Source: an uncultured Methanomicrobiales archaeon (GTDB lineage Archaea; Halobacteriota; Methanomicrobia; Methanomicrobiales; Methanospirillaceae). Taken from it: a stretch of 64,000 bases of DNA. Location: the NCBI GenBank assembly GCA_963758915.1, contig CAVWXH010000005.1, positions 32,001 through 96,000 on the forward strand, read 5' to 3'. Made by a program: the position numbers and the translations under genes. The notes under the pieces are model-generated. The model saw only the letters and a list, made by a program, of their open reading frames with translations, was not told the origin of the DNA and did no database searches. This document shows, piece after piece, positions 45,666 to 62,213 of the stretch (positions within the stretch are counted from its first letter, which is position 1; every line of letters starts with the position of its first letter).

Positions 45666-45787
45666 TGCCTGGTAAATAGATGATATCCGGGTAATGCCCA
45701 TTTTTTTGACCCCGGATAATTCAACCGGGAATATTACCAATTATTATTCAGTCATTCCACTACATTATTAATTCAGGGGATTTTCCA

Positions 45788-46735: not shown

Positions 46736-46980
46736 CCCGGTATGAACTAAAATTACCATTTTTCAGGTGGAATCCACAAACCCGGACTATCCGCAATTAC
46801 AATAATGCCAGATCACGATCTGAAACCATAAACACCATGTTCTCCATGGTCCTGAATAATTAAGAAAACCCGAGGGTCTGGAAAACTATACGATTTCTTC
46901 GTCTCACGCCATGTGGATGAAAAAATTTTACCGGTATTCCAAATTCATTAAATACGTTACATCCAAAGGATCAGGTTGGT

Positions 46981-48261
46981 ATGCTATCCCTGATACTCAT
47001 TGGTGCGATCATCTTTTCGATAGCAATTTTTATCTATTCCCTGGTCTCGCACCGTATCGAGGGGTCAATTATCACAGCTCCCATGATTTTTGTAGGGATT
47101 GGCCTGCTCGTAAGTCCGGACGGGCTTGATTTCATTTCCCTTGGAGTAAATAACCAGTTAGTATTGGTCTTTGCAGAAATCGCACTGGTCTTAATCCTTT
47201 TTTCTGACGCTGCGAGGATAGATTTCACCACCCTGAAAGGAAACCGGAATTTACCCGCCCGGTTGCTTGGGATCGGCCTTCCGCTTACGATTTTTGCGGG
47301 TGCTGTTACGGCGATACTCGTCTTCACCGATCTTGCACTGGCGGAAGCTGCGCTGATAGGGGCCATCCTTGCACCCACTGATGCGGGACTTGGCCAGGTA
47401 ATAGTGAACAGCCCGAAAGTCCCGGCGAGGATCCGCCAGGCCCTGAACGTGGAGAGCGGGCTGAACGATGGAGGCGCTATACCGTTTTTCGCTTTCTTCC
47501 TGGTCCTTGCAGATGCAGAGAAAGAGAACCTTCCCGCAAGCCAGTGGGTCCTGTTTGCAGCTGAACAAATCGGTCTTGGTATCCTCGTAGGGCTGATTGT
47601 TGGCCTGTTAGGGGGATACCTGGTCAACAAGGCCATTGATAAGGGACTCATGCAGGGAAGGTTCAGCTGGATCGGGTTCCTCGCTCTGGCAATAATATCT
47701 TTTATTGCGGCCGATGCAGTGGGCGGAAGCGGTTTCATCGCGGCTTTTGTAGGGGGCTTAGCCACGTCTGTTACCGGCAGACATGTGGGAGAGTCAGTAA
47801 TCGAGTTCACGGCAACAGGGGGAGAGATTTTCAGTCTTGCAGTGTTCTTCATTTTTGGCATCCTCGCTGCCAGTCTTCTGTCAGGATTGACCCTTGAAAT
47901 TTTAATCTATGCAGTCCTGAGCCTGACTCTTATCCGGATGCTCCCGGTCGCGATATCCCTGGTAAAAACCCGTTTACGACCAGAATCAGTGCTTTTCATT
48001 GGCTGGTTTGGTCCACGCGGGCTTGCATCGATTGTGCTGTTACTCATTACACTCAATGATGCCCCGGGTATCCCCGGGTTGCAGACGATAGCGATGGTTG
48101 TCAGTACTACTATCCTTATCAGTGTTTTTGCCCACGGCTTATCTGCAAACCCCCTCATCAACTGGTATGCAGGAAAAATTGCAACATTACCAGGGGATGC
48201 ACCTGAACTGAAAGTGGTGGTGGAGTCACCAACACGAATCCCGGCGAAGGGAAAAAAGTAG
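46981..48261 (+). CDS. CPA1/NhaP-type cation:proton antiporter
   Basis: ILFSDA, LAPTDAGLG, VESGLNDG, GWFGPRGLASIV. Confidence 0.92.
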   Translation: MLSLILIGAIIFSIAIFIYSLVSHRIEGSIITAPMIFVGIGLLVSPDGLDFISLGVNNQLVLVFAEIALVLILFSDAARIDFTTLKGNRNLPARLLGIGLPLTIFAGAVTAILVFTDLALAEAALIGAILAPTDAGLGQVIVNSPKVPARIRQALNVESGLNDGGAIPFFAFFLVLADAEKENLPASQWVLFAAEQIGLGILVGLIVGLLGGYLVNKAIDKGLMQGRFSWIGFLALAIISFIAADAVGGSGFIAAFVGGLATSVTGRHVGESVIEFTATGGEIFSLAVFFIFGILAASLLSGLTLEILIYAVLSLTLIRMLPVAISLVKTRLRPESVLFIGWFGPRGLASIVLLLITLNDAPGIPGLQTIAMVVSTTILISVFAHGLSANPLINWYAGKIATLPGDAPELKVVVESPTRIPAKGKK

Positions 48262-48459
48262 TTAAACTGAACCTGGCTCTCCTTACTTCTCGTTTCTGCA
48301 GTTGTTGCAATGATACCCGGGTGGTTGCTCTCAAAGTACTCAGGGAAAAACATGCAGCAAAACGAGGGATAACCGCAATAATCACGAGATCTCCGGACCG
48401 CTTAACATTTTTTTTAATATGGGTAATGCCCGGGTTTTCAGCCCGGTGCTGGCATCCCA

Positions 48460-49045
48460 TCCGGAAGGACCCCTGCTTTTTCTACCCTGATGGTACTGTT
48501 GATAATTCGTTTTGTACAGATTGCGATGGTTTTCTTTTCAAACAGGTACTGGTGAAGAAAAATATCAATCGGGTCCCATAAGGCAACCCAGCAGAAAATG
48601 ACAATGGCGCCAACCAGAATGTCTGCGAGGACCGGGTCGGTGGTAGTGGAATACAGGTAGATGCAGAATAGGAGCAGTACCTGCAGAAATACTCAGTCCA
48701 TAAATAAGTCCGTATTTTATTCTTTTCAACTGAACCCGCAACTTTCCTCCTTGCACCCTCACACCGATAGGTGAAATAGGTCCGCACTGCCTCCGGAAGG
48801 TCAGACTCTGACTTCATCTGTTACCTGCGGAGCAGGAAACCTGATCGTATAGTGGACCGGTTTTTTCGGTTCCCTGTCAATTATTGCCGTGATCATGGCA
48901 ATACAGCGCATCATCTGGAAAGGTCCCTGTTTTTTACGGGTGACGGGTCATCCGGATCGAAGAACTGGTCAACACGTTTGAAACCAAGTTCGACAACCAG
49001 CTGGTCTTCCTCTTCCCTAATATGTTCAATATAATTTGATCATGT
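48460..49045 (-). pseudogene. Third, multiply frameshifted member of the 25035/27530 family
   Basis: Frame-hopping gives VELGFKRVDQFFDPDDPSP / ESDLPEAVRTYFTYR / LVGAIVIFCWVALWDPIDIFL, collinear with the paralogs; boundaries approximate. Confidence 0.7.
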
Positions 49046-49257
49046 TGTTTGTAATCCTCCAGCCATCATCCGGGATGATTGCCGGATCCCGGGAATTCAC
49101 GTGAGTGTATTCTACTGCATTTTTCTGCTGTACTGTATTAATAACTGTTTTGTTTCCTGAAGCCAGGAATAATATTGCTTTTCCGGCTATTTTGTTTCGT
49201 ATTCTTTAAATTCGGGTAATTCCTACTATTTCCATAGTTCATTAACGAGGGGATTTT

Positions 49258-50280
49258 ATGGCTGAAGGAATTTTCGCAAGACTGAAAGAGGGTCGTTTTG
49301 ATCCGGACTATGTGCCGATCTTTGAAAGTAAGTTATTTTTTGAAGGAGAAAAAAGAGAGCGGCAGACGATCAACTTTGCAGTACTTCTGGCACTCGCCAC
49401 GGTTATTGCGACCTATGGTGTCATTACAGACTCTACTGCAACGGTGATTGGTGCAATGATTGTTGCACCGCTGATGACCCCGATAATGGCTACCGGGGCA
49501 GCCGTGTCAATGGGGGCTTCAAGGCGGGCGATGAGTTCCATTACCCTTGTCACTCTCGGCGTAATCGGGGTTATTATGCTGGCGATGATCCTTACTGCGG
49601 TAGTGCCTGGTCAGCTGGTATCGCTGACACAAAATCCGCAGATAACCTCCCGTGTCAGTCCGGGCCTGCTTGATTTGTTGATTGCCCTTGCAGCGGGTGC
49701 AGCAGGAGCTTTCGCAATAGGCCGGCAGGAGATAGCCGATTCCCTGGCAGGTGTCGCGATAGCAATCTCCCTTGTCCCCCCGCTGTGTGTTGTCGGAATA
49801 ACCCTGTTCCATGGAGGTTTTATCGAGGCAAGTGGTGCTTTTCTCTTGTTCCTCACTAATTTTATCGCAATTCTGGTGGCAGGAACCATCATGTTCGGCC
49901 TGATGGGGTTGCCGGGGGCGATAAAGATGGAAATGAAGGCTGAAACGCGGAAGAAAGCCATGGTTGCGATAATGATTGCAGGTATCTTGCTAATCGGAGT
50001 TCTTGCGGTAACGAGTTACCAGGCATACCAGGCGACAAATGACCAGATAGAAGCGAAGAACCTCGTAACAGAATGGGTTGGCCTCTCCCAGTACCAGGTA
50101 CAGAAAGTGGTTCTTACCAGGTCAGGTGTTAATGTAATTCTCGTTGGTGAAGGTCCGTTACCCCCCCTCGAAACCCTGTCAAAGGATATGGAAGAACAAT
50201 TTGGTCGGATGATGGTTATTCAACTGCATACAATCCCGGAAAAAAAAGTAACCTATCCGTCGGTTATGGCGGGGTTATAA
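49258..50280 (+). CDS. DUF389 / TIGR00341 family membrane protein
   Basis: DSTATVIGAMIVAPLMTPI, GVAIAISLVPPL, LFLTN. Confidence 0.9.
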   Translation: MAEGIFARLKEGRFDPDYVPIFESKLFFEGEKRERQTINFAVLLALATVIATYGVITDSTATVIGAMIVAPLMTPIMATGAAVSMGASRRAMSSITLVTLGVIGVIMLAMILTAVVPGQLVSLTQNPQITSRVSPGLLDLLIALAAGAAGAFAIGRQEIADSLAGVAIAISLVPPLCVVGITLFHGGFIEASGAFLLFLTNFIAILVAGTIMFGLMGLPGAIKMEMKAETRKKAMVAIMIAGILLIGVLAVTSYQAYQATNDQIEAKNLVTEWVGLSQYQVQKVVLTRSGVNVILVGEGPLPPLETLSKDMEEQFGRMMVIQLHTIPEKKVTYPSVMAGL

Positions 50281-50435
50281 AATATTTATGAAAAAACCCC
50301 CACAGCTTACCCCGTTCAATGAGGGATCCCGTGGAAAAAATGCCAACATATCCGGCAGCAATAATAATTGAACGTCCCGAACAACTATATCCACAGGGCA
50401 CTGAAATTACTAGAGCAAACCCATACCTTTGAAAA

Positions 50436-53066
50436 ATGAAAGAACCTGTTATAGTATCCCCGGAAGACCGGGCTCACCTTGAAATGAAGGGCGGTCTCCA
50501 GTCATCAGAAGTCCCTGAATATCGCAGTAAGTTCGGTGCAAATGTTATGACCCCCCCGGTACGGGAACCGTTATGGTTACAGTACCTGAAGAAATACGAT
50601 GACCCGATAATCAAAATCCTTATTATTGCTGTCGTAATCTCTCTCATCGTCTCGATAATCCAGGGGATCAGCTTTTATGATACCCTTGGAATTATTATCG
50701 CTATCCTGCTTGCAACCGGCATATCTTTTTTCAACGAATACCGGAGCAGCAGGGAATTCGATGTACTGAATGCTCACCGGGATGATGTGGGCGTTAAGGC
50801 AGTCCGCGATGGTCACCCGTCAATGATACCCTCGCGTGACATCGTTGTCGGGGACCTCATCATCCTCGAAGCGGGGGATGCAGTTCCGGCAGATGGCTGG
50901 CTGATCGCCTCAGATGCGTTCTCGAGTGACGAGTCCGCCTTTACAGGCGAGAGCGAACCGGTCGCAAAAGACAGGGAAGATCCGGTCCTGAAAGGCTCAT
51001 TTGTTACTGCCGGGAAAGGACGGATGATCACCGGGGCAGTTGGTGACTCGGCCCAGATGGGGGTAATTGCAGCATCGCTTGGTATCGACCATGCAACCGC
51101 AACCCCCCTTGAACAGAAACTGGAAGCCCTTGCAGGGATCATCAGTAAATTCGGGTATACCATGGGTATCCTGATCCTTGTCAGCCTCTCGATCCGTGGG
51201 ATATTACTCGGGGAACTGACCGGGCTGAACCTTGAAACCCTGAACCATGTCCTGCACTACCTCATGATAGCCGTCGCCATTATCGTCGTTGCAGTCCCTG
51301 AAGGGCTCCCGATGAGTGTTGCACTCTCTCTTTCCCTCGCAATGCGGAAAATGACCCGGGCCAACTGCCTGGTGAGGAAGCTGATTGCCTGTGAGACGAT
51401 TGGCTCTGCGACAACGATTTGCACAGATAAGACAGGGACGCTCACAAAAAACCAGATGGAAGTTGCTTCGGCATCAGGTGGAGAACCCGTACGACCTGAT
51501 AATACTCCCCATACCGCTTCTGAATGGATCACGCTGAATGCCGCACTAAATGGTACTGCCTACCTGGAAGAGCGGGATGGGCGGGTAATTGTCATTGGTA
51601 ATTCGACAGAGGGGGCTCTCCTCCGGTGGCTCCAGCTCCATTCAATCAATTACATGACTATCCGTTCAGAAATCCACGTCAGCAAACAATTCCTGTTCGA
51701 TGGCAACAGGAAACGGATGTCAACCGTTGTAACTATTGCCGGAAAACCCTATCTGCTGGTGAAAGGGGCGCCCGAGATCCTCGCCTCGCTCTGTCTGGTC
51801 CAGCCTGACATGGGCGGCATAAGTGAGCTTGCATCACGGGCTATGAGGACTCTTGCATTTGCCCATAAGGAAATTGTGGACGGTGACGACAGCGAGTCCG
51901 GTCTGCACTGGGACGGGTTTGTCGGTATACGTGACCCGTTGCGGGACAACATTGCTGAATCGGTTGCTACCTGCAGGGCCGCCGGAATAAAAGTCCGGAT
52001 GGTGACGGGTGATAACCGGGAAACGGCAAAGGCCATTGCAGCGGATTCAGGGATCATGGCGGGCGGGATTGTCGTGGACGGAAAGGAATTCCGGTCACTG
52101 ACACCTGACCAGCAGGTATCAGTTGCACAAAACCTTGATGTGATGGCGAGAGCTGAACCTATGGACAAGCTCCTCCTTGTCCAGGCGCTGCAGAAGAAAG
52201 GGGATGTTGTTGCAGTCACCGGTGACGGGACAAACGATGCCCCGGCCCTTAAAAATGCCGATGTCGGCCTGGCAATGGGTATTGCAGGGACCGAAGTAGC
52301 GAGGGAAGCCAGCGATATTATCCTGCTTGACGACTCTTTCGCATCGATCACCAGTGCCGTCTGGTGGGGCAGATCACTCTACGAGAATATCCAGCGTTTT
52401 GTGCTGTTCCAGCTCACACTCAATTTCTGCGCCTGTATTCTGGTATTTATTGCCCCGCTCCTTGGATATCCGGAGCCGTTTACCATTATCCAGATCCTCT
52501 GGGTTAACCTGATTATGGACACACTTGCCGCATTTGCACTCTGTTCGGAAGCGCCACACCGTGACCTGATGAACCGCCTTCCCATTGAGAGAAATACCCC
52601 GGTTATCACCCCGTTTATGTGGTTTTCAATTATCGTGACAGGTACGTTCTTTATCATCGGCGGATTGATCCAGATGAAAACAGGTTTCCTGGGGGGTACC
52701 ACGCCGGCTGAAATTACAACAGTGTTTTTCGCTGCATTTGTCATTGCTGCGATCTGGAATGGTATCAACTGCAGGGCACTTGACGGGAAGATGCCGCCAT
52801 TTTTTAAAGGCAACCCGACGTTTTTCGCAGTAATGGGATTCATTGTCCTCGCACAGATCCTGATTGTCCAGTACGGCGGGTCTGTTTTTGGCACAGTTCC
52901 ACTGACACTCAACGAGTGGCTAACAATTATCGTCGTGTCATCTTCTGTGCTGGTTGTCGGTTTTGTAATCCGGGTTGCGTATCACCGGTTCGGAGACCGG
53001 ATCAATTCTCTCATGCCAGGTGCAAAAGCAGGAAACAAGACCCGGTATCCTCCGGAGGTCCCATAA
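50436..53066 (+). CDS. Ca2+-translocating P-type ATPase, PMCA-like
   Basis: VAVPEGLP, DKTGTLT, FQLTLN, ILWVNLIMDT, TGDGTNDAPAL. Confidence 0.92.
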   Translation: MKEPVIVSPEDRAHLEMKGGLQSSEVPEYRSKFGANVMTPPVREPLWLQYLKKYDDPIIKILIIAVVISLIVSIIQGISFYDTLGIIIAILLATGISFFNEYRSSREFDVLNAHRDDVGVKAVRDGHPSMIPSRDIVVGDLIILEAGDAVPADGWLIASDAFSSDESAFTGESEPVAKDREDPVLKGSFVTAGKGRMITGAVGDSAQMGVIAASLGIDHATATPLEQKLEALAGIISKFGYTMGILILVSLSIRGILLGELTGLNLETLNHVLHYLMIAVAIIVVAVPEGLPMSVALSLSLAMRKMTRANCLVRKLIACETIGSATTICTDKTGTLTKNQMEVASASGGEPVRPDNTPHTASEWITLNAALNGTAYLEERDGRVIVIGNSTEGALLRWLQLHSINYMTIRSEIHVSKQFLFDGNRKRMSTVVTIAGKPYLLVKGAPEILASLCLVQPDMGGISELASRAMRTLAFAHKEIVDGDDSESGLHWDGFVGIRDPLRDNIAESVATCRAAGIKVRMVTGDNRETAKAIAADSGIMAGGIVVDGKEFRSLTPDQQVSVAQNLDVMARAEPMDKLLLVQALQKKGDVVAVTGDGTNDAPALKNADVGLAMGIAGTEVAREASDIILLDDSFASITSAVWWGRSLYENIQRFVLFQLTLNFCACILVFIAPLLGYPEPFTIIQILWVNLIMDTLAAFALCSEAPHRDLMNRLPIERNTPVITPFMWFSIIVTGTFFIIGGLIQMKTGFLGGTTPAEITTVFFAAFVIAAIWNGINCRALDGKMPPFFKGNPTFFAVMGFIVLAQILIVQYGGSVFGTVPLTLNEWLTIIVVSSSVLVVGFVIRVAYHRFGDRINSLMPGAKAGNKTRYPPEVP

Positions 53067-53256
53067 ATTTCCCGGGGAACGCAGTAATTTATTCCTGCCA
53101 TCAGGGATACCAGTTGGACCCACGTTGGCATCCTCCTATAAAAAAAAGTGATTTAACGGGCCAGCTGAACAGATACGACTCATGCAAATTCAGTCGTCTG
53201 CCGTCCTCTTTTTTTATCCTGGCCTGATCAGATATGCAGACCCTAAAAAAAAACGA

Positions 53257-53979
53257 TTATTCCCCTGCCTGCCTGTTTGAGAGGAATTTTCCCACCAGCC
53301 AGGAAACAAGAACCGCGATATACAGCGTACCGATAATCATCTCAAACATCGTCACCGTCCGTGCTGTCGATGTAAGTGCTGCGACATTGTAATTTCCCGT
53401 GGTCGTGAGGATTGAGAAACTGTACCCGATGTAATCAGATATGTACACCAGCTGGTCGGTTCTCTTTGTCACGATATCAAATGACGCTGGTGAAAAAATC
53501 TCCATTGCCATTATACCCATAGCCCATGTGAGGCCGAGGAGGAAGTAGACCGATATTGCCCCGAAAATTGTATCCCTCCGTATTTCACGTTCATGGATGA
53601 CAACTAAAAAAATTGCAATGCTGACCAGGATAAAAAATACCAGGGTGACTACAACTGCGGCATGGAAATAATGAGCAATCCCGGTCAGGTAATAGAAGGA
53701 ATATAAGATAATCGTGATTATCACAAGCACAACCCCGATGACCATGAGGTGCACGTTGCGACTTATAGCCTGGATTGCAAAGAATAATAAAATTACCAGC
53801 AGTATATCAGTGAAAATCCTTGCAGCTTCACTATCTTCGAGCAGGGGAAGGACAGAAAGGAAAACAATGAGTGCAATGAAATGGAATGTACATTTATTCT
53901 CATCCCTCCATTTCAGGAAAGCAGCAGTTTTGTTTTCTAATGAGCCCTTTATCATGTTTTTGCCGGGTGTGGAGGGCAT
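53257..53979 (-). CDS. Potassium-channel-like protein (Ion_trans_2) with degenerate filter
   Basis: I.GAISVY.LLG..W, YSFSILTTTGNYN in place of TLGYGD, E...G.LYIAVLV..LVG. Confidence 0.8.
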   Translation of the reverse strand: MPSTPGKNMIKGSLENKTAAFLKWRDENKCTFHFIALIVFLSVLPLLEDSEAARIFTDILLVILLFFAIQAISRNVHLMVIGVVLVIITIILYSFYYLTGIAHYFHAAVVVTLVFFILVSIAIFLVVIHEREIRRDTIFGAISVYFLLGLTWAMGIMAMEIFSPASFDIVTKRTDQLVYISDYIGYSFSILTTTGNYNVAALTSTARTVTMFEMIIGTLYIAVLVSWLVGKFLSNRQAGE

Positions 53980-54159
53980 ATACCAGATGTATCTGCGAAT
54001 AACAGATATTGTTTTATCTTTAAAATCCGGACCGGGAATATTCCCTGGACGAAGACTCCACCGTATCGTATATTAGAAATTTCCGGACGGTCCCGGAATC
54101 TGAAATGTCCCCCTGGTTTATCCGGAACCGTTACTTTCACCCTGCCCATGGCAAGATCG

Positions 54160-54166
54160 TTTATAT
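54160..54166 (+). promoter_or_regulatory. Putative TATA box for the candidate ncRNA
   Basis: TTTATAT about 30 nt before the start of the folded region. Confidence 0.45.
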
Positions 54167-54192
54167 GTCACTCATAGAGTGTCTAATCGTGT

Positions 54193-54613
54193 CAGGATCA
54201 TGCTACCGGGACGAATAGAGCGGACCGGTAACTATACTGGCTGCCATATCAGCCTGTGGTGGCGGCACCAGCCTTGTGCTCCTGGCACAAAGGGGAAACC
54301 AGTGATGAATGACCCCTCAAGACAACGGTCTGTGCCATAATCGTGATAGTTGCACCGTACCAACGACCCCGGCGCCACCAGGGATCGCATGATGCAGGTG
54401 AACAGACCTGTTGGAGATCGGGAAACCCGTTGGGCCGGTAACGCTCATCCGTTACCAGGCTGCCGGAAGAGGCCTGAGATAAACTGAACGTAAGGAGTGA
54501 TGTAACAGGATCAAGACCCGCCAAAACCCACCTTTACAATTGTAGCATACAACAGAGTCCGGTGTCCGGAATAACCTGAGCATGAGGGCCCGGTCCGGAA
54601 AATGGTAGATCTG
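54193..54613 (+). ncRNA. Candidate large structured non-coding RNA (~410 nt), family unknown
   Basis: No credible ORF; terminal helices 54203-07/54604-08 and 54221-28/54590-97 enclose about 10 nested or adjacent stems (see findings). Confidence 0.45.
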
Positions 54614-54763
54614 CAGGGGTATACGCAGGAAATGCGTTTGCGATCTCCCTATAACCAACACGATTTAATTAATATTCAATCTCTTCAATCCATCTTTTTA
54701 TTGATCACTGACGGTAACATTCCTAGAGAATTTCCTGACCGTGGCCAGGTATGCCCGGAACGT

Positions 54764-56701
54764 TCAAAGTCCCGGCTGCTGCTGGCTTGCACAGTGGAAG
54801 GTCCCGTACCCTTCAACCATTGCCCGGGCATTAATCCCGATTACCTCCCGGCCCGGGAAGAGTGACCTAAGAATATGTAAAGCCCGGCTATCCTTGGGAT
54901 CATTAAAAACCGGGACGATAACTACTGAATTACCAATATAGAAATTTGTGTAACTTGCCGGGTACCGGAGATCCCCGTTCGAGACGCTATCCGGCATCGG
55001 TAGTTTTACAACCGTTAGCGGCCCCCCGTCCTGGTCCGTGGATTTTAACAGGGTATTATAATTCTCCTGCAGGGTACGGTAATTTTCATCGGCCCTGTCC
55101 TCCTCACATGCACAGACAACGGTGGAAGGGCCGGTAAACCTCGCAAAATCGTCAATATGACCATCGGTGTCATCCCCTGCGATACCTTCCTCCAGCCATA
55201 GTACGTGGTCGACTCCAAGGTTCTCCTTAAGGAATGCCTCCAGGTCAGGTTCTGATAATCCTTTGTTCCTGTTCGGGTTAAGGAGGCATGAACGGCTGGT
55301 CATGACGGTCCCTCTCCCGTTCACATCGATCGAACCCCCTTCGAGGATAATACCCGGGCTGAATACGGGAAGTCCCAGCCAGTCGCTCATCAATTCCGGA
55401 ATTGTTCCATCCCTGATGAGGTTTTCATATTTTCCGCCCCACGCATTAAATTTCCACTGCACCATGGCAACCTGGGAAATGGCAGGATTGACAACGAAGG
55501 TGGGCCCGTAATCGCGGATCCAGACGTCCTGATAGTCAGTAACCCGGTACCGGACATGAGAATCGCCCGTCCCCTCCTTACAGAGACGTTCTTTGATCAT
55601 TTCCCTTGTGCCCGTGTCCCTGACAAGCAGTTCTACCGTTTCTGACCCGTGCATTGCAGAAATAAACCTGATATAGGCATCTTCAACTGCACCAATGTCA
55701 GGGAATGTCACGGTATTATGGGGCCACGAGAGCCATACTGCCTCGTGCCTCTCCCATTCTGCAGGCATGCAAAACCCCGTGTTTCGCGGGGTATCTCCCT
55801 TGCGGACGATAAAACGGAGCCCGGTATTGTCGGGCATGGTGACGATATTCCCGTATGTATCAGGACGCCGGTTGCGGAAAAAGCCCCATGAATCCTGAAT
55901 TGTCCGGTTCATCGAGAGATCCAGGTCCGCGATGATGATCTCCTCTGCATCTCCTGCACGGGCTATTACCCTGCCAAATGCATCGCTTACAAAAGAACCC
56001 CCGAAAAACCTGACTGCCCCTTCAGTTCCCACCCGGTTAACTGCTGCAACATGGATACTATTGGCAATCGCATGGCTCCGCTGGACCAGTTCCCATGATT
56101 CCTGCCAGTCACCTTCCAGGGGATCGAAGCTGAGAGGCTGGCCGATTGCCGTCGGGTAAAAAATTATCGATGCACCCATGAGAGCGGCGGAACGGGCCGC
56201 TTCAGGGAACCACTGGTCAAAACAGATTAAGACTGCAAAGCACCCGAAACGGGTGTGAAAGATCCGGTACTCATTACCCGGGTAAAAATATCCCTTCTCA
56301 TAAAAACCAGGGTCCTGGGGAATATGGACCTTATGGTACGGTGGATGCAGGCTGCCATCAGCATCGATCACAACCGCTGTATTGAAAAAACGGCCATCAG
56401 TTGCTCTTTCATATACCGGTACGATAATTACGACCTGGGAACGCTTCGCGATCGTTGAAAAGAGGTCCGTGGATTTCCCCGGGACGCTCTCAGCAAGAGC
56501 TGATGCATCTCTCCGGATGTATTGTGGGAAGTAGCGGGTACGGAACAGCTCGGGGAGGCAGATAATTTTTGCACCTTTGTCGATTGCGGACTCTACCTTC
56601 ATGACAGCACGCTGAAGGTTATCTTCAGGGTCTGGCCCCATTTCCATCTGGACCAGTCCGACTATAACGTTCCGTCCGTCTGCGATGGGTTGGCGCTCCA
56701 T
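54764..56701 (-). CDS. aguA: Fused N-carbamoylputrescine amidase (AguB) / agmatine deiminase (AguA)
   Basis: Nitrilase triad LPEL, YHKVHIP, ICFDQWFPE; then MPAEW, WIRDYGP, EGGSI, DDTDGHID, G.GTFHC.SQQQP. Confidence 0.93.
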   Translation of the reverse strand: MERQPIADGRNVIVGLVQMEMGPDPEDNLQRAVMKVESAIDKGAKIICLPELFRTRYFPQYIRRDASALAESVPGKSTDLFSTIAKRSQVVIIVPVYERATDGRFFNTAVVIDADGSLHPPYHKVHIPQDPGFYEKGYFYPGNEYRIFHTRFGCFAVLICFDQWFPEAARSAALMGASIIFYPTAIGQPLSFDPLEGDWQESWELVQRSHAIANSIHVAAVNRVGTEGAVRFFGGSFVSDAFGRVIARAGDAEEIIIADLDLSMNRTIQDSWGFFRNRRPDTYGNIVTMPDNTGLRFIVRKGDTPRNTGFCMPAEWERHEAVWLSWPHNTVTFPDIGAVEDAYIRFISAMHGSETVELLVRDTGTREMIKERLCKEGTGDSHVRYRVTDYQDVWIRDYGPTFVVNPAISQVAMVQWKFNAWGGKYENLIRDGTIPELMSDWLGLPVFSPGIILEGGSIDVNGRGTVMTSRSCLLNPNRNKGLSEPDLEAFLKENLGVDHVLWLEEGIAGDDTDGHIDDFARFTGPSTVVCACEEDRADENYRTLQENYNTLLKSTDQDGGPLTVVKLPMPDSVSNGDLRYPASYTNFYIGNSVVIVPVFNDPKDSRALHILRSLFPGREVIGINARAMVEGYGTFHCASQQQPGL

Positions 56702-56826
56702 TGTTGTGTCTTATAAATGTATGAACTGAAGAGACATAATTGACTTACCCTAAAATGCCGGGGTCTAAAAAAAATCACCGCTAAAAAAAAGATGCAGAAA
56801 AGGGGCCTGCTTTCAACGCATTGTGA

Positions 56827-58164
56827 CTATTGGGAATTCTTACGTTTCAGGTAACCTGACAGGTAATTCAATAACCCGTGGACGCCGTCAGTCTCGGGGT
56901 GGACTTCAAGGAATGAGGAGAAATCGTCTGCAGTGTACCCTTTCTGCATCAGGAATGCGATATAACTCGTGATAATCCCTGCTCCCGGGCCCGATGTTGA
57001 AACCCCCTGCAACAATCCCGTTTCAGGGTTAACGCTGACCTTCGCAAGACCCGTGGCATTGAAGGGGACTTTCCAGAACGTACCGGGACCTGCCGGCCCG
57101 GGGAGACTCACTGAGACTGTGCCGTCATTTGACGGGTTACAAAAAGCATGTTCGCTTGCAAGGCTGACCGACTGGGGAAAGTACTGGTAGTCCATCGTGG
57201 TCACCCTTCCAAGGATGTTCTCTGCGGCAACAATTCCTTCATGACGGGCGACAGGGGTAAGATACGGCGGGCCTGTAACATCCCCTGCAGCATACACCCC
57301 TTTTATGCTGGTCTCCATGTGACTGTCAACAAGCACCTCCCCACCAGGCCCCTTTTTCATGCCATGGAGGTTTTCAGATCGAGGGGAGAGCCCGGTGGCA
57401 ATAAAGAGTGCGTCACATTCAATCTCCTGTTGTGATGCATCCGGTGTCCGGACGGAAACAGAGCTCAGGTGCCGCTCACCGTTAACGGTCAGCAACGAGG
57501 TCCCGGAATGGATAGTAACCCCTTCGAGCTCTGGTAATGCGACCGCGCGCTGCCGGTCGTCAAGTACTTTCAGTACATCACTGCGGGCAACCATGCTTAC
57601 ATCGCACCCGAACGAAGAAAAAATAAAGGCAAATTCGGCAGCCATTACACCGCCGCCGAGGACAACCATCGTTCGGGGTAACCGGTCCATCTGTGCGAGT
57701 GTATGCGGGTTATATACCCCCTCCATCGAGATCCCCGGGACGTCCGGTATTACAGGGGAAGAACCGGTTGCTGCAATAACGGCATCAGGCCTGATGACCT
57801 CGCTACCCAGCCGGACTTCGTTTCCATGGAGAACCGCATCAGTACCGTACTGGATCTCAACCCCCGTACTGCGGGTCTCAGCATCGAGGATACGGGCAAT
57901 TTTTTTCTGGATTTCCAGCATTTCACAGATTAATGTTGGAAAATTTACTTGCGGTACCCGGTCGATGACACCGAGCCGCTGGAGGTCACGGGCATTCCGG
58001 ACAACCCGTGCCGCGTCATTCAGCGCACAGACTACCATGCAGCCGAAATTAAGGCACTGGCCCCCGATAGCACCACGCTCTGCAAGGAGGACCTCCTTTC
58101 CGGCATGTGAGAGGTGCATTGCGGCTATGCGGCCTGCCGGGCCACCACCAAGGACGACGATCAT
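56827..58164 (-). CDS. Pyridine nucleotide-disulfide oxidoreductase (dihydrolipoamide dehydrogenase-related)
   Basis: GGGPAG, GGQCLNFGC, ATGS, GGGVMAAEFA, YAAGDV, HPETD; start at MIVVLGGG. Confidence 0.88.
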   Translation of the reverse strand: MIVVLGGGPAGRIAAMHLSHAGKEVLLAERGAIGGQCLNFGCMVVCALNDAARVVRNARDLQRLGVIDRVPQVNFPTLICEMLEIQKKIARILDAETRSTGVEIQYGTDAVLHGNEVRLGSEVIRPDAVIAATGSSPVIPDVPGISMEGVYNPHTLAQMDRLPRTMVVLGGGVMAAEFAFIFSSFGCDVSMVARSDVLKVLDDRQRAVALPELEGVTIHSGTSLLTVNGERHLSSVSVRTPDASQQEIECDALFIATGLSPRSENLHGMKKGPGGEVLVDSHMETSIKGVYAAGDVTGPPYLTPVARHEGIVAAENILGRVTTMDYQYFPQSVSLASEHAFCNPSNDGTVSVSLPGPAGPGTFWKVPFNATGLAKVSVNPETGLLQGVSTSGPGAGIITSYIAFLMQKGYTADDFSSFLEVHPETDGVHGLLNYLSGYLKRKNSQ

Positions 58165-58171
58165 GGGATGA

Positions 58172-59140
58172 TCAGAGTATCTCGCACCCTTCATCCATCG
58201 GCTGGGAGAGGACTTCACCGGTGAATGCGTTCACTTCGACAATTTTTTTGCCCCTGACCTGCCAGACCGGGAAATGCACGAGGTCAATATCAATGCTGAT
58301 ATTCTTCTTTTCCGGCTTCATGACCTTTTCTTCGTAGAAGATGGTATCTCCCTTCACCTGCTTGATCCGCACACGCTGGGTGAGTTGCTCCACCAGTTCA
58401 CCAAATATCCTGGTATTCGCCTCATCCTTCGAAGTTTTAGGTCCGACTACCTCTGCGTCCCCCGGGATTTCGCCTTTATCGATTGTTTTCGGATCAATCT
58501 CGAGTTTTAACCCGTTAATCGCGTTGATTGCACCCCACCCTTCAGAATCGAATGGAATACGGTGGTCCTGGTAGACCTGTTCGCCGCTGCTCATGTAGTG
58601 GTACACCCAGTGAGGCATAAACTTCAGGATGGCCGCCCCCTGCGTTCCGGAAATCCGTTCTGCATTCTGTTTTGTTACCTTTACCGGCAGGTGCGGGATA
58701 CTGACCCCTGTACTTTCAGCTACGACCGGCTCTGGTGTGGTATCAGTTGCGCTATCTGGTATTGGCCCGGGTCCCGCTCCCGGGATGAGGGTGAGCGAGA
58801 GTTCGCGATCAAGGACCCTGGCAAGGGTTGCCTCCCCTGAAAGACGGACAAACTCCCTGACGCCCCAGATGATGCAATGCTCCGTATGAATCGTATTGTC
58901 AAGGGTAAACAGGAGTTTTTTACAGGGAACCTGCTCTCCCCCGATGATGATGTCATAGTTTGTCCTGTCAAACTCAGCAATGGTGTCAGCCTCCACAGAA
59001 CAGAGCACTGCCACATATTCATCATCCCTGACCGCCGAGAGGTCAAGGGGGTCATCCACTTCCTCTACCTCGAATCCTGCCGCTTCAAGGATAAGTTTCA
59101 CGGCATTTTTCGCCTTTTCCCGCGTCTCGTGTTCCATCAT
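58172..59140 (-). CDS. Conserved hypothetical archaeal protein (PD-(D/E)xK/Mrr-like N-terminus)
   Basis: ILEAAGFEV....DLSA N-terminus; repeated P.W and NA..G motifs. Confidence 0.65.
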   Translation of the reverse strand: MMEHETREKAKNAVKLILEAAGFEVEEVDDPLDLSAVRDDEYVAVLCSVEADTIAEFDRTNYDIIIGGEQVPCKKLLFTLDNTIHTEHCIIWGVREFVRLSGEATLARVLDRELSLTLIPGAGPGPIPDSATDTTPEPVVAESTGVSIPHLPVKVTKQNAERISGTQGAAILKFMPHWVYHYMSSGEQVYQDHRIPFDSEGWGAINAINGLKLEIDPKTIDKGEIPGDAEVVGPKTSKDEANTRIFGELVEQLTQRVRIKQVKGDTIFYEEKVMKPEKKNISIDIDLVHFPVWQVRGKKIVEVNAFTGEVLSQPMDEGCEIL

Positions 59141-59199
59141 GCATACATTTCCCCTGTCTTATAGAACAATTTTTCTCTTTCATGATGGAAAACTGTACA

Positions 59200-59946
59200 A
59201 TGACAAGCCCCCCGAAATTCATTAATCACCGGATAGAAGAATTTGCCATGCAGGTCACCTACAGTCCTGAGGAGAGGACCGGCACTCTTGTCTATAATCT
59301 TTCACTTATCCGGAGTGAAGACCTTGAATTTGCGATAAAGATTTTTAAAGATGCTTACAGGGCGGGTATAAGTGTGAGCGGACTTGTGCGGTTCCTGCAA
59401 CCTGGTGCAATGGTAGAAGATTACCAGGTGCCAGAGGGTTGCATTGGTATGGTATCCGTCTGCAGCTCCACCCTTGATGGCCTTCTGCTCAGGCGCGGGA
59501 TCCCCATGAACCCGATAGGCGGGGGTATTGTTGAGATTGATCACCGGGTCCCGAAACGGTTTATTCACATGATCCTGTACGAGCATACGACAATTGATCC
59601 TCTCCAGGTCCTTATATCGCAGGAGCTCACATCGGTAAATGCGGTCATGAGGCGGGGGAGCGGAAACCTCCTCGCAAATATCCGTGAATGCCACATGGAG
59701 GCGGAATCCCTTGTCGGGGAAGTGCTGGACAGTCTTACGGGAAGTGACCTGTCGGGCATCCTCGAGGTCGGCATGCCAAACACCCCCGCATTAGGTGTTA
59801 CGGTGGACCCGCAGTACCTAGGAATTGTTGCGGTGGGTGGAACGAACCCGATGGCTGCAATCCGGGAAGAAGGGCGGTGGGAGGTAATCAGGGCAATGAA
59901 AGGTCTTATGGACGCCGGTGAAATGACCCATATCAACGAATACTGA
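59200..59946 (+). CDS. nrpRII: NrpR regulatory-domain (DUF128) protein lacking HTH, NrpRII-like
   Basis: SVCSSTLDGLL...GIP.NPIGGG, TIDPL, LANIRE, VGGTNPMA. Confidence 0.8.
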   Translation: MTSPPKFINHRIEEFAMQVTYSPEERTGTLVYNLSLIRSEDLEFAIKIFKDAYRAGISVSGLVRFLQPGAMVEDYQVPEGCIGMVSVCSSTLDGLLLRRGIPMNPIGGGIVEIDHRVPKRFIHMILYEHTTIDPLQVLISQELTSVNAVMRRGSGNLLANIRECHMEAESLVGEVLDSLTGSDLSGILEVGMPNTPALGVTVDPQYLGIVAVGGTNPMAAIREEGRWEVIRAMKGLMDAGEMTHINEY

Positions 59947-59976
59947 TTTCCTCTCCTTTTTTCCTGACATCTGAAT

Positions 59977-60744
59977 TTACTCTTTTCCGGCCCATTCTCT
60001 GAAAAAACGCCAGTATGAACTGAAAAATCTGACAAACCCGTCAGATTCGGAATAGAGCCCTGTCAATCCCTCGTCCTGCGGGCCCATTATCACCATGACG
60101 CGATTGCAGTCAATTAAAAAGACCCCGCCCGCAACGGTTTTACCCTGAATTTCATGTCCGATTGGTGGTTTTTTGATAATCAGCTGAAGGTTCTGCGGGA
60201 CCTTTCCCGGCCACTGGTCGACAATAATTTCTATTGCCACGCTCTTACCAGCAGTTTCAAGCTGCTCTATCATGCCGGGGGTAAAAAAAGTGTTGCTGCT
60301 GATAATACGGATGTTCTGTTGTGCGTGACCGATAAGGTCTGAAATCCTGATATGGATATTTTCCAGGCCGTAGATACTCCATATCAGCTCCTGTGTCCCG
60401 CGTTCAACCCCGATCCTCTGGCTGAATATGTCAGAAAGGACTTTTTTGGCCTCCTGTGCATTCGCCTCAATACCTGAGAGGAGGTTGCTGATCCCTTCAT
60501 CAGGGGGCATTGCATCGAACCGTTTCGGTGAGGTGTTCGATACGGAAACAAGATTCTTCTGGATGAGCCGGTCGAGGACGGGGTACACCGATGCGCGAGG
60601 CACCCCCGATATCTCGTGGATCTCAGTTGCAGTTGCCCCGGCAACTTTTAACAGGGCAATATAGACGAGTGCCTCATACTTTGTGAGCCCTAGTGACTTC
60701 AGAGATTCGGCAATATTTGAGAGTTCATCCTGTGATTCGGCCAT
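59977..60744 (-). CDS. TrmB family transcriptional regulator
   Basis: LGLTKYEALVYIALL...ATEI...SGVPRASVYPVL..L. Confidence 0.9.
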   Translation of the reverse strand: MAESQDELSNIAESLKSLGLTKYEALVYIALLKVAGATATEIHEISGVPRASVYPVLDRLIQKNLVSVSNTSPKRFDAMPPDEGISNLLSGIEANAQEAKKVLSDIFSQRIGVERGTQELIWSIYGLENIHIRISDLIGHAQQNIRIISSNTFFTPGMIEQLETAGKSVAIEIIVDQWPGKVPQNLQLIIKKPPIGHEIQGKTVAGGVFLIDCNRVMVIMGPQDEGLTGLYSESDGFVRFFSSYWRFFREWAGKE

Positions 60745-60775
60745 TGAATACCTATATATACGGTTGAGTAATAAA

Positions 60776-60797
60776 TGTTGTTATAACAATAACAACA
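60776..60797. promoter_or_regulatory. Inverted-repeat operator between divergent trmB and S-layer genes
   Basis: TGTTGTTA-N6-TAACAACA, overlapping the perfect palindrome TTGTTATAACAA (60778-60789). Confidence 0.55.
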
Positions 60798-60808
60798 AGT
60801 GATTTCGA

Positions 60809-62089
60809 ATGGAAATACGGTATTTTCTGATAGCAATATTCATGGTTTTTTTAATGGCGCCGGCAATGGCCGGGACATTGTATATCTCCGATGGTCCGAC
60901 GTTCACCGCAACGGTTGCAGGGACTAACCAGTTTTCACCGGGTAAAGATCTGCAACTCCCGGTTAAAATTGAAAACAGCGGCCTTAACCGCCTTAAATTT
61001 GTGCAAACCGGCTATATCGAACGGGACGACCTACCCAATACAGCGAAATTTGTTACTGCATCACTTTCACCCGGGGGCTCCCCGGTGATAATAAAATCTG
61101 ATTCACAGGTAATGGGAGATCTTCCCGGTGGAAAAAGTGTCCAGGTGATCTATACTATCAAAATTCCGAAACAGGCAGCTGCTGGTGAATACTTACTGCC
61201 CCTGACCATCAGCTACCAGTTCCTTGCAGGAGCTGAGCAGAGTGCCGGCGATCTCATCGAGTACCAGTACAAGACAAAGAGTGTTGTGGTAACCCTGCCC
61301 CTGACAATCGAGCCGAACGTATTCCTTGACGTGTCACCTGTAACCAGCGGGGGGCTGAACGTCGGTACCGAGGGATATCTCGATCTGAATATTACGAACA
61401 GCGGGGGGGAGGATGCACATGCTGCCACCATAAAAATTTTGAGAAGTGGCAACAGCCCGGTAACACCAACTGACAGCAGCGTTTTTATTGGAGACTTCCC
61501 TGCCGGGAATTCAACGGTTGGCAGGTTTAAAGTGTCAGTCTCCCGCGATGCGGAAGCACAGGAGTACCCGGTTGATGTTATTGCCGTGTATAAAAATCAT
61601 GAAGGGGACACGGTTACATCTGCCCCGGTCACCGTGGGGATCCCGGTGAATGGAAGGATCGGGTTTGACGTCGTGAACGCGGACTCGGATATGAGTGCCG
61701 GTAAGAAAAAGGTTATTGAAGTCACCTACCGTAATTCGGGTGATGTTACAGCCTACAGCGCCCAGGCACGGATCAGTGTTGTGGACCCCTTCACCAGTAA
61801 CGATGATTCTGCCTACCTTGGGGATATTGCCCCTGGAAAAACCGCTGTTGCGCGATATGAAGTAGGCGTGAGTTCCGATGCAGTAGCAAAAGACTATGCG
61901 TTCGATTCCGAGGTGAGGTACCGTGACTCTCTTGACAACAGCCAGATATCAGATCCCGTGAAGGTGCCGGTCACCGTTGTCGAGGCAACGGCCATGGATG
62001 GCGTAATGGCCAACCTGGTATTGATAGTCGCAGGGATCGTAGTGGTCGGAGCGGCAGGGTATTATCTGCTTGTAATGCGAAAGAAATAA
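60809..62089 (+). CDS. COG1361 S-layer-domain protein
   Basis: Signal peptide, Ig-like repeats (GDL.GG, DSSVFIGD, ARISVVDPFTSNDDSAYLGD), C-terminal TM plus RKK. Confidence 0.85.
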   Translation: MEIRYFLIAIFMVFLMAPAMAGTLYISDGPTFTATVAGTNQFSPGKDLQLPVKIENSGLNRLKFVQTGYIERDDLPNTAKFVTASLSPGGSPVIIKSDSQVMGDLPGGKSVQVIYTIKIPKQAAAGEYLLPLTISYQFLAGAEQSAGDLIEYQYKTKSVVVTLPLTIEPNVFLDVSPVTSGGLNVGTEGYLDLNITNSGGEDAHAATIKILRSGNSPVTPTDSSVFIGDFPAGNSTVGRFKVSVSRDAEAQEYPVDVIAVYKNHEGDTVTSAPVTVGIPVNGRIGFDVVNADSDMSAGKKKVIEVTYRNSGDVTAYSAQARISVVDPFTSNDDSAYLGDIAPGKTAVARYEVGVSSDAVAKDYAFDSEVRYRDSLDNSQISDPVKVPVTVVEATAMDGVMANLVLIVAGIVVVGAAGYYLLVMRKK

Positions 62090-62213
62090 TCAATTATTGA
62101 TTTTTTTAATTTTAGACCTTTTTAATCAGGGTATCCGTTTTCCACTCCTGATCTGGTTCATGTCAGCACTGTCCGTGATATCCTTGGAATGAAAAAAGGA
62201 TGATGGTATTATT

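What the first reader, a model, noticed from the sequence alone, without database searches (positions are those of the whole stretch)
54160..54655. Candidate new ~410-nt highly structured ncRNA with its own TATA box at the island/core border
Seen: the 780-bp gap between the K-channel gene and aguBA has no credible ORF. After TTTATAT (54160), the + strand forms a nested set of helices. Closing stems are CTACC/GGTAG (54203-07/54604-08), CGGACCGG/CCGGTCCG (54221-28/54590-97) and ATACTGG/CCGGTGT. A sub-domain is closed by TGGTGGCG/CGCCACCA (54257-64/54373-80); it holds TTGTGC/GCACAA, AGGGG/CCCCT (around a box-C-like GTGATGA) and ACGGT/ACCGT. Then come back-to-back hairpins CAGGT/ACCTG, CGGG-AAA-CCCG, GGTAACG/CGTTACC, AGGC/GCCT, GTAAGGAGTG/CACCTTTAC and TTGTA/TACAA. 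Knowledge: I see no RNase P (GAGGAAAGU), SRP, group I/II intron or intact riboswitch signature. Inference: a multi-domain RNA of unrecognised class, possibly also the island's integration landmark. Helices were found by eye.
Basis: partly seen in the sequence, partly recalled or inferred. Interest (0 to 1): 0.8.

Follow-up and report, generated by a model that had tools for sequence, protein, structure and literature searches.

The report
Genus-specific archaeal non-coding RNA gene
The gap holds a real, separately transcribed RNA of about 510 bases, found in only one uncultured methanogen genus; it does not code for protein here, folds reliably only in its first fifth, and carries a small protein gene in a sister lineage.

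Summary
The feature is real, but it is not a 410-nt "highly structured" RNA. Window 54189-54701 (+) is a separate unit of about 513 nt. It has a conserved upstream box (54133-52), a TATA box (54160-66) and an oligo-T stop (54695-700). It occurs in 13 of 13 genomes of one uncultured Methanoregulaceae genus and full-length in none of 215 other family genomes. It matches none of 4227 Rfam families. Metatranscriptome contigs from four studies lie on it.

In the window's clade it cannot code: every frame has stops, and 159 of 173 indels are not multiples of three.

Only the first ~100 nt form a conserved fold, a three-way junction (alignment z -6.1; helix P1 98% paired, with two compensatory pairs). 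The centre shows no conserved structure.

In the sister clade the same transcript carries an intact 83-codon ORF directly behind the 5' domain.

Best reading: a functional non-coding RNA, formerly coding or once dual-function, acting through its 5' domain and invariant blocks. It is probably co-regulated with DNA replication/repair genes through a shared promoter box. Function is untested. There is no island border here.

The parts
54133..54152 (+). Conserved upstream promoter box ACTTTCACCCTGCCCATGGC
   Evidence: ACTTTCAC followed by GTTTATA was found in all 13 copies scanned. In the genome, a box match YTTCACNCNGC is followed by a TATA-like element 18-42 nt downstream at 8 of 56 sites, against 48 of 2349 for 60 permuted motifs; binomial 1.8e-5.
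54160..54166 (+). TATA box TTTATAT; (C)GTTTATA is conserved
   Evidence: The spacing places the inferred start near 54189. The start has not been mapped.
54189..54701 (+). The RNA gene, about 513 nt, non-coding in this genome
   Evidence: Conserved at 67-96% identity in 9 genus genomes. Found by profile in the other 3. Flanks outside the unit cannot be aligned beyond the nearest relatives. No ORF is kept. RNA-library contigs cover 54221-54617.
54189..54288 (+). Helix P1: GUGUCAGG (54189-96) with CCUGGCAC (54281-88); it closes the 5' three-way junction
   Evidence: 98.2% of 112 cells paired in 14 distinct sequences. Two pairs change on both sides (U:A to C:G, A:U to G:C) in the 4 sister-clade copies. 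0 of 500 shuffles reach the observed score.
54205..54229 (+). Hairpin P2 (54205-12 with 54223-29)
   Evidence: 75% of cells paired; two G-C pairs are 12 of 12. In most of the 13 sequences folded one by one, a hairpin forms at this place. The register varies.
54239..54254 (+). Hairpin P3: GGCUG/CAGCC
   Evidence: 98.3% paired in 12 sequences. A hairpin forms here in 13 of 13 single folds, with a different stem sequence in the sister clade, CCUGGUG/CAUCAGG.
54253..54266 (+). Invariant block B, CCUGUGGUGGCGG, in the junction
   Evidence: CTGTGGTGGC is invariant in 16 of 16 sequences.
54373..54380 (+). Block D, CGCCACCA, complementary to block B; pairing would form a pseudoknot across P1
   Evidence: The six core pairs are 98.6% paired, but five never vary, so the pairing is untested. 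GCCACC is also present in the sister clade (read by eye).
54437..54456 (+). Hairpin P7: GGUAACG-CUCAUC-CGUUACC
   Evidence: 72.6% paired; 2 pairs change on both sides.
54457..54475 (+). Hairpin P8: AGGCU/GGCCU around the loop GCCGGAAGA
   Evidence: 71.7% paired; 4 of 5 pairs change on both sides.
54492..54551 (+). Blocks E (AAGGAGUGAUG) and F (CCCACCUUUACAAUUGUAGCAUAC), with helix AGG-GUG/CAC-CUU and hairpin UUGUA/UACAA
   Evidence: Six E:F pairs are 12 of 12 and the hairpin is 96.7% paired. All are invariant or change on one side only. Block E resembles a Shine-Dalgarno site: duplex with the 16S tail -10.9 to -12.9 kcal/mol, against -22.1 for a perfect site.
54558..54570 (+). Hairpin UCCGG-UGU-CCGGA
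   Evidence: 88.3% paired; 2 pairs change on both sides, e.g. U-A to C-G.
54600..54650 (+). 3' conserved block AAAUGGUAGAUCUGCAGGGGUA...GCGAUCUCCC, with an outer stem and inner hairpin ACGCA/UGCGU
   Evidence: Outer stem 88.0% paired with no double changes. Inner hairpin 88.3% with one. The sister clade has a different 3' hairpin.
54695..54700 (+). Oligo-T run in CTTTTTAT, the inferred archaeal terminator
   Evidence: CTTTTTA is invariant in the 10 copies of the window's clade; the sister clade has TTTT. That termination happens here is inferred.

Best explanation
Window 54189-54701 (+) is a functional RNA gene with its own promoter and terminator. It is confined to one uncultured genus of Methanoregulaceae and is non-coding in this genome.

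Shown:
- The promoter box, TATA box and oligo-T are conserved.
- The unit evolves more slowly than four-fold degenerate sites.
- No reading frame is kept.
- RNA-library contigs lie on it.
- Its first ~100 nt fold into a three-way junction (P1 closing P2 and P3), supported by compensatory changes. A 10-nt core of junction block B (CUGUGGUGGC) is invariant.
- Further along, invariant blocks (D, E, F and the 3' block) alternate with fast-evolving linkers that carry a few covarying hairpins.

Inferred:
- The RNA acts at the RNA level, most likely in trans as an abundant protein-bound or regulatory RNA.
- Its working parts are the 5' junction domain and the long-range pairings B:D and E:F.
- It is switched on together with DNA replication and repair genes (Mre11-like, Nre, primase/GINS), because it shares their upstream promoter box.
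- It descends from, or once doubled as, the mRNA of an 83-residue basic protein, which the sister clade still appears to encode directly behind the same 5' domain.
For: Conservation:
- Full-length matches of 67-96% identity in 9 genus genomes. The other 3 were found by nhmmer, E 4.5e-18 to 3e-8 for the best hit.
- Flanks outside the unit cannot be aligned.
- RNA identity to the window is 0.55-0.70, against 0.36-0.62 at four-fold sites of the two neighbouring genes.

Non-coding.

Not a known family: 0 Rfam matches at gathering score in the window. Only chance-level matches at E up to 10 in the gap, and none on the RNA in 8 homologous loci. RNase P RNA (200.5 bits) and SRP RNA (184.2 bits) lie elsewhere.

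Structure:
- 5' domain alignment z -6.07, SCI 0.58, 0 of 100 column shuffles as good. Single-sequence z -3.88.
- P1 statistics.
- My 75-pair model is 84.1% paired, against 33.9-40.6% for slid controls. 17 cells change on both sides; 1 of 500 shuffles reaches this.

Expression:
- 15 of 24 listed runs are RNA libraries.
- Contigs from 4 RNA runs of 4 studies lie inside 54221-54617 with 0-10 differences.
- In the other 2 kb laid, only one clean piece matched.

Promoter box.

Sister-clade ORF:
- Exactly 83 codons in 4 of 4 copies, with no indel over 252 nt at 13-28% divergence.
- Single-change codons are 44 synonymous to 38 non-synonymous in frame, against 27:76 and 21:81 in the shifted frames, for the same four pairs.
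Against: - The whole RNA folds no better than shuffles.
- The central 54278-54529 has SCI about 0 on the MAFFT alignment.
- On the whole model, only 9 pairs change on both sides, and 136 of 500 shuffles reach that number.
- The best-conserved helices never vary, so they are uninformative.
- P1's two compensatory pairs stem from a single split between the clades.
- The RNA runs were picked because they hold this stretch. Contigs give no strand, ends or level, and DNA carry-over cannot be excluded.
- A scan for complementary 11-mers in the genome gave mostly near-chance counts; two blocks ran 4-5 times over the crude expectation but showed no common context. No target or partner is known.
- The link to a replication/repair regulon rests on a shared DNA motif at 8 promoters of one genome, and on 5 further promoters of one gene in relatives.
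- The ORF in the sister clade could mean the unit is simply an mRNA whose reading frame decayed here.
Confidence: 0.55

Rival explanations
1. A decaying pseudogene. The unit was the mRNA of the 83-residue protein. The frame broke in the window's clade, and what remains is a transcribed relic with no function.
For: - The sister clade has an intact ORF with signs of selection.
- In the window's clade the homologous centre has many indels and no consensus structure.
- Overall identity is only 0.1-0.2 above four-fold sites.
Against: - Within the window's clade, neutral sites are near saturation (four-fold identity 0.36-0.62). Yet the promoter box, TATA box, terminator, the 105-nt 5' domain and blocks of 10-24 nt stay invariant in 12 sequences.
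- The RNA is assembled in small RNA libraries.
- tblastn with the four ORF products finds nothing at the locus, even at E up to 10.
Confidence: 0.12
2. A cis-acting sensor. The 5' three-way junction is a leader of the riboswitch or protein-binding kind that once controlled, and in the sister clade still controls, the ORF behind it. In the window's clade it controls the length or stability of its own transcript.
For: - In the sister clade P1 ends 10-14 nt before an SD-like AAGGAGGUG and the AUG.
- The junction nucleotides are invariant, as in ligand pockets.
- The 5' domain is the only part with a strongly conserved fold.
Against: - No Rfam riboswitch matches.
- There is one copy per genome (1 match in G000) and it occurs in one genus only. 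Known riboswitch classes are spread more widely.
- The window has no ORF downstream.
- No ligand is suggested by the neighbouring genes.
Confidence: 0.15
3. One reading: one multi-domain RNA of about 410 nt closed by long-range stems (54203-07/54604-08 and others), which also marks the integration site of an island.
For: The strings exist. The closing stems are 70-75% paired in 12 sequences.
Against: - The closing stems show no covariation and compete with local hairpins P2 and UCCGG/CCGGA, which do covary.
- Four inner helices fail.
- Whole-RNA z is -0.5 to -1.2.
- Synteny continues on both sides, and there is no tRNA.
Confidence: 0.06
4. A DNA-level or antisense role. The conserved blocks are protein-binding sites for the divergent membrane-protein gene, or transcription of the unit reads into the convergent agmatine deiminase/amidase gene (aguBA) and tunes it.
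For: The unit is convergent with aguBA in both clades, although the upstream neighbour differs in the sister clade.
Against: - 500 bp of ordered blocks with a covarying RNA helix and a conserved terminator are not needed for either role.
- aguBA orthologues in 24 loci of 10 other genera have no such unit next to them.
Confidence: 0.05

Closest known systems
Large orphan structured RNAs of bacteria (OLE, GOLLD, ROOL, HEARO, raiA; named from memory, all in Rfam)
   Same: Hundreds of nucleotides long, with its own promoter and terminator, conserved blocks and no known function. Found by comparative reading of an intergenic gap.
   Different: No Rfam match. It is archaeal and confined to one genus. 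Only the first fifth has a demonstrably conserved fold.
Dual-function RNAs that both regulate and encode a small protein (SgrS/SgrT, RNAIII/hld, SR1/SR1P; recalled, not tested here)
   Same: One transcript with RNA-level conserved blocks that in part of the lineage also carries a short ORF. The blocks inside that ORF are invariant at third codon positions too (by eye).
   Different: Here the ORF is lost in 12 of 16 copies while the RNA is kept. No base-pairing target is known. The peptide has no relatives: Pfam gives none, and the only hit among 5.8 billion proteins is one of the query's own four sequences.
Riboswitch or leader aptamers built as three-way junctions (e.g. TPP and purine classes; recalled)
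   Same: P1 closes two hairpins with invariant junction nucleotides. In the sister clade it sits directly before the ribosome-binding site.
   Different: It matches no known class, has one copy per genome and no downstream ORF in the window. The ligand is unknown.
Archaeal RNase P RNA and SRP RNA
   Same: Stable RNAs of 300 nt or more with their own promoters.
   Different: Both were found elsewhere in this genome at 200.5 and 184.2 bits. Nothing at this locus matches either.

Membership tests
Any Rfam 15 family (4227 models) | A covariance-model score at or above the family's gathering score | tested here: not met
   0 matches in the 64-kb window. In the gap, the best are 15.7 and 13.8 bits at E 6-7. 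None on the RNA in 8 homologous loci at E up to 5.
Archaeal RNase P RNA (RF00373) | A match to the model, including the P4 core | tested here: not met
   The only match in the genome is C16:145082-145429, 200.5 bits.
Archaeal SRP RNA (RF01857) | A match to the model | tested here: not met
   The only match in the genome is C10:97166-97477, 184.2 bits.
Box C/D sRNA | Conserved C box (RUGAUGA) and D box (CUGA) at fixed spacing | tested here: not met
   GTGATGA at 54302-08 is present only in the window and G011 among the 12 aligned copies. G006 has GTGATAA and the rest differ more. Box consensus recalled.
tRNA / tmRNA | An ARAGORN call | tested here: not met
   0 genes in 45000-64000.
Protein-coding gene | A reading frame kept open among homologues, with indels in threes and excess change at third positions | tested here: not met
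   Window's clade: stops in all frames, phases 119/119/125, 159 of 173 indels not multiples of three. No conserved minus-strand ORF. The sister clade does meet it in part.
Riboswitch (generic) | A conserved aptamer directly upstream of the regulated gene, recurring across genes or taxa | tested here: inconclusive
   The fold is conserved. There is no ORF downstream in the window, one copy per genome and one genus only. An ORF does lie downstream in the sister clade. Ligand binding cannot be tested with these tools.
Integration site or island border | Synteny breaks at the element; tRNA or integrase nearby | tested here: not met
   Collinear with L033 from about 48.4 kb and with L030 to at least 59.9 kb. 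The same four neighbours recur in the window's clade. No tRNA. Integrase genes were not searched for.

The most novel reading that the evidence does not exclude
A switch between coding and non-coding in one genus. The transcript began as the mRNA of an 83-residue basic protein under a ligand- or protein-sensing three-way-junction leader. It belongs to a lineage-specific DNA replication/repair regulon marked by the box CACTTTCACCCYGC. In the larger clade the frame was lost, but the RNA was kept as an abundant riboregulator or RNP. The conserved blocks would then have served both the protein and the RNA in the ancestor.
Probability: 0.25. Interest if true: 0.7.

Novelty: new variant of a known kind. 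Interest (0 to 1): 0.55.

Why it matters
Few RNAs longer than 300 nt are known in archaea beyond rRNA, RNase P RNA and SRP RNA, and hardly any come from uncultured methanogens.

This one is clearly under selection and visible in environmental RNA libraries from sediments, wetlands and lakes. It is tied by its promoter to replication and repair genes.

The pair of clades, one with an open 83-codon frame and one without, gives a natural experiment on how an mRNA turns into a non-coding RNA, or the reverse.

Its narrow range limits its general importance, and its function is still unknown.

Tried and rejected
- Pseudoknot between the P7 loop (54445-49) and 54304-08. It looked compensatory by eye between the clades, but only 43.3% of cells pair on the MAFFT alignment. 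Dropped.
- Brute-force listing of conserved complementary column runs on 16 sequences gave noise.
- RNAalifold on all 13 full-length sequences gave only 39 pairs, because the sister clade is misaligned in the centre.
- CM R1 of the 5' domain was built from the window's clade only. It scores the sister clade at 16-21 bits, no better than antisense hits to the window's clade (16.7-19.5 bits), so it cannot reach distant relatives. Alignment A6 was spoiled by six antisense rows and not used.
- CCGG enrichment: 4-13 per copy, but the genome average is 9.96 per kb, so it is unremarkable.
- Target search with complementary 11-mers. Most blocks were near a crude equal-base expectation. The 5' end (9 against 2.3) and the inner-hairpin block (22 against 4.5) ran higher, but their hits showed no common context.
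- Block E as a decoy for the 16S 3' tail: -10.9 to -12.9 kcal/mol, ordinary for a ribosome-binding site and not the best site in the RNA.
- Phage and plasmid collections: no match.
- AlphaFold of the 83-residue product with 4 rows: mean pLDDT 47.7, uninformative.
- Profile search of 5.8 billion proteins: only one of the four query sequences itself came back.
- Literature: four searches (listings and abstract starts only) showed no paper on such an RNA or on the promoter box. Supplementary files were not consulted.
- Depth or absence of cover outside the RNA is not used as evidence.
- Integrase genes and a BLASTX-style search of the gap against all proteins were not run. The coding tests and the tblastn stand in for the latter.

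Full report
WHAT IS THERE.
The gap between the 240-residue membrane-protein gene (53257-53979, minus strand) and the fused carbon-nitrogen hydrolase / agmatine deiminase gene, "aguBA" (54764-56701, minus strand), is 784 bp. The membrane protein gives only a weak Ion_trans_2 match, E 0.0047 and below the cut-off.

CONSERVATION AND LIMITS OF THE UNIT.
- BLAST of the gap against 40 relatives gave long matches in 9 genomes of the same genus, at 67-96% identity.
- The other 3 genus genomes had only a 26-nt match. A profile of the nine then found the whole element in them, E 4.5e-18 to 3e-8 for the best hit in each.
- The alignment shows where conservation begins and ends. It starts at a 20-nt box (54133-54152), followed by CGTTTATA. 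It then runs through a series of invariant blocks and stops at CTTTTTAT (54694-54701).
- The sequence before the box and after the T run cannot be aligned beyond the closest relatives.
- Box, TATA and T run all lie on the + strand. I infer a transcript from about 54189 to about 54701, 513 nt. The ends are inferred, not mapped.

DISTRIBUTION.
- Among 228 genomes of the family (19 genera, own genome included), full-length matches occur in 13 of 13 genomes of the genus. None occur in the other 215, of which 9 gave isolated hits of 21-41 nt.
- A covariance model of the 5' domain found 10 of 151 family genomes, all of the window's clade. This model is blind to the sister clade, so it says little about distant relatives.
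- An exact pattern over blocks E and F hit 9 records among 185,579 species' genomes. All are MAGs titled Methanoregulaceae or Methanomicrobiales. It also hit 5 metagenome contigs.
- Next to aguBA orthologues in 24 loci from 10 other genera, nhmmer without filters found nothing.
- No match in phage or plasmid collections.
- The copies fall into two clades. The window's clade has 10 genomes and 2 metagenome contigs. A sister clade has 3 genomes and 1 new contig, about 490 nt with a different 3' hairpin.

NOT CODING HERE, NOT A KNOWN RNA.
- In all 16 copies every frame on both strands has 1-13 stops. Variable sites fall 119/119/125 over the three phases. 159 of 173 indels against the window are not multiples of three. 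Minus-strand open frames differ in place and frame.
- Rfam gave no match at gathering score in the whole window, only chance-level matches in the gap, and none on the RNA in 8 homologous loci.
- RNase P RNA and SRP RNA are found elsewhere in the genome. No tRNA lies nearby.

SELECTION.
- Against the window, four-fold degenerate sites of the two neighbouring genes are 0.36-0.62 identical in the more distant members of the window's clade.
- The RNA is 0.55-0.70 identical, counting gaps as differences. Whole coding sequences are 0.73-0.84 identical.
- So the unit as a whole is under moderate constraint. It is made of invariant blocks and linkers that evolve almost freely.

STRUCTURE.
The same holds for the full unit, z -1.16. 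The first 103 nt do fold better, z -3.88, 0 of 200.
- On 9 non-redundant copies of the window's clade, I compared RNAalifold energies in 130-column windows with 100 column shuffles each. The result was z -6.07 and SCI 0.58 for 54189-54306. SCI was about 0 for 54278-54529. Towards the 3' end z was -1.0 to -2.4.
- The 5' domain is a three-way junction.
  - P1 (54189-96 with 54281-88) is 98.2% paired in 14 distinct sequences. U:A becomes C:G and A:U becomes G:C in the sister clade. That is one evolutionary event.
  - P3 forms in 13 of 13 single folds, with a different stem sequence in the sister clade. P2 forms in most.
- My 75-pair model is 84.1% paired on 12 sequences, against 33.9-40.6% when partners are slid. 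17 cells change on both sides (1 of 500 shuffles). The number of pairs with such a change, 9, is not unusual (136 of 500).
- Double changes sit in P7, P8, the UCCGG/CCGGA hairpin and the inner 3' hairpin.
- B:D, E:F, P1 and P3 never vary within the window's clade, so within it they say nothing either way.
Five helices hold, four fail, and TTGTGC/GCACAA competes with P1. The long-range closing stems are 70-75% paired through palindromic CCGG, without covariation.

EXPRESSION.
- Of the 24 runs listed as holding part of the stretch, 15 are recorded as RNA libraries.
- I laid four RNA runs from four studies on window 53200-55800. Five contigs of 151-261 nt lie inside 54221-54617 with 0-10 differences.
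- Outside the RNA, only one clean piece matched, 54959-55173 in aguBA.
- This shows the sequence is present in RNA libraries, some of them very small. It does not give strand, ends or level, and the runs were chosen for holding the stretch.

PROMOTER BOX.
- The box YTTCACNCNGC is followed by a TATA-like element 18-42 nt downstream at 8 of its 56 matches in the genome. For 60 permuted motifs the figure is 48 of 2349, binomial 1.8e-5.
- The seven other sites precede the following:
  - an Mre11-like phosphoesterase, split into two ORFs;
  - an Nre_N/Nre_C protein;
  - an ORF with the end of DNA_primase_S, followed by a Gins51/Sld5 protein;
  - a RibD_C protein;
  - a Redoxin protein behind a 225-nt leader;
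  - two proteins without a Pfam family.
- The box also stands before the same Nre paralogue in four other genomes of the genus and in one of a neighbouring genus.
- That the RNA is co-regulated with these genes is an inference from the shared motif.

THE SISTER-CLADE ORF.
- In all four sister-clade copies an AUG lies 6-8 nt after an SD-like sequence, itself just behind P1. It opens a frame of exactly 83 codons that ends inside block F.
- There is no indel over these 252 nt at 13-28% divergence, whereas the leader and the 3' part do have indels.
- For the same four pairs of sequences, codons with one change are 44 synonymous to 38 non-synonymous in frame, against 27:76 and 21:81 in the shifted frames. 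The pairs are not independent, and the excess at third positions is small.
- The product is basic. It has no Pfam family and no relative among 5.8 billion proteins other than itself. Its predicted fold has no confidence.
- tblastn with the four products finds nothing at the window's locus.
- I read this as probable, weakly constrained coding in the sister clade and loss, or never gain, of the frame in the window's clade. With no outgroup the direction cannot be told.

SURROUNDINGS.
- The order P-type ATPase, membrane protein, RNA, aguBA, pyridine-nucleotide oxidoreductase is the same in every locus of the window's clade long enough to show it.
- Collinearity with two longer contigs runs from about 48.4 kb to at least 59.9 kb.
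- The sister clade keeps aguBA downstream at 58-64% protein identity.
- There is no island border at the RNA.

HOW IT MOST LIKELY WORKS, WITH ODDS.
- That this is a real, selected, non-coding transcription unit: about 0.9.
- That it acts at RNA level in trans, as a protein-bound or regulatory RNA centred on the 5' junction and the invariant blocks: about 0.4-0.5.
- That the 5' domain is, or was, a cis-acting sensor for the ORF behind it: about 0.15.
- Functionless relic: about 0.1.
- Nothing here tests a function.

LIMITS.
- Metagenome and genome pattern scans were limited to one each.
- Papers were seen as search listings only.
- Names of known RNA classes and motif consensuses are recalled.

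Noticed in passing
window 54133-54152; G000 C2:34188(-), C2:39163(-), C3:44420(+), C3:139783(-), C3:297581(-), C10:66339(+), C16:249462(+): A promoter-linked box CACTTTCAC(C/G)C(C/T)GC lies 21-25 nt before the TATA element at eight promoters. The genes behind include an Mre11-like phosphoesterase, Nre, primase-end/GINS, RibD_C and Redoxin. This looks like a lineage-specific regulon with an unknown factor.
   Followed up: partly
L018:1578-1829(-), L019:1215-1466(+), L020:1577-1828(-), L031:144-395(-): An 83-codon ORF for a basic orphan protein lies inside the sister-clade copies of the RNA. It shows a synonymous excess and has no indels.
   Followed up: yes
window 54764-56701 compared with L012 (G010): aguBA of G010 is 0.80 identical to the window at four-fold sites. 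The membrane gene 0.8 kb away is only 0.43 and the RNA 0.66. This suggests recombination or transfer of aguBA between lineages.
   Followed up: no
aguBA orthologues of G045, G057, G066 and G079 (genus g27); L062, L064, L065: Four of the five g27 genomes with an aguBA match have one in-frame TGA in aguBA. This could be recoding, selenocysteine or a shared defect.
   Followed up: no
G000 C2:32968-34132 and C2:38393-39098: The Mre11-like gene and the RibD_C gene each appear as two overlapping open frames. This could be a frameshift or an assembly error.
   Followed up: no
window 54676-54704: An inverted repeat, TCAAT...ATTGA, brackets the oligo-T run. In relatives it is up to 7 bp, GATCAAT...ATTGATC. 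Its 3' arm lies beyond the inferred RNA end, so the true 3' end may lie further on, or the repeat acts in the DNA (read by eye).
   Followed up: no
G000 C10:66339-66592 (L076): A box-type promoter is followed by about 225 nt without an ORF before a Redoxin gene. This may be a second long leader or a small RNA.
   Followed up: no
window 54604-54619: The invariant 3' block holds two overlapping 6-nt palindromes, AGAUCU and CUGCAG. In the sister clade GAUCUG can pair with the loop of the following hairpin (CAGAUU, CAGGUU, AAGAUU), forming a possible pseudoknot (by eye).
   Followed up: no
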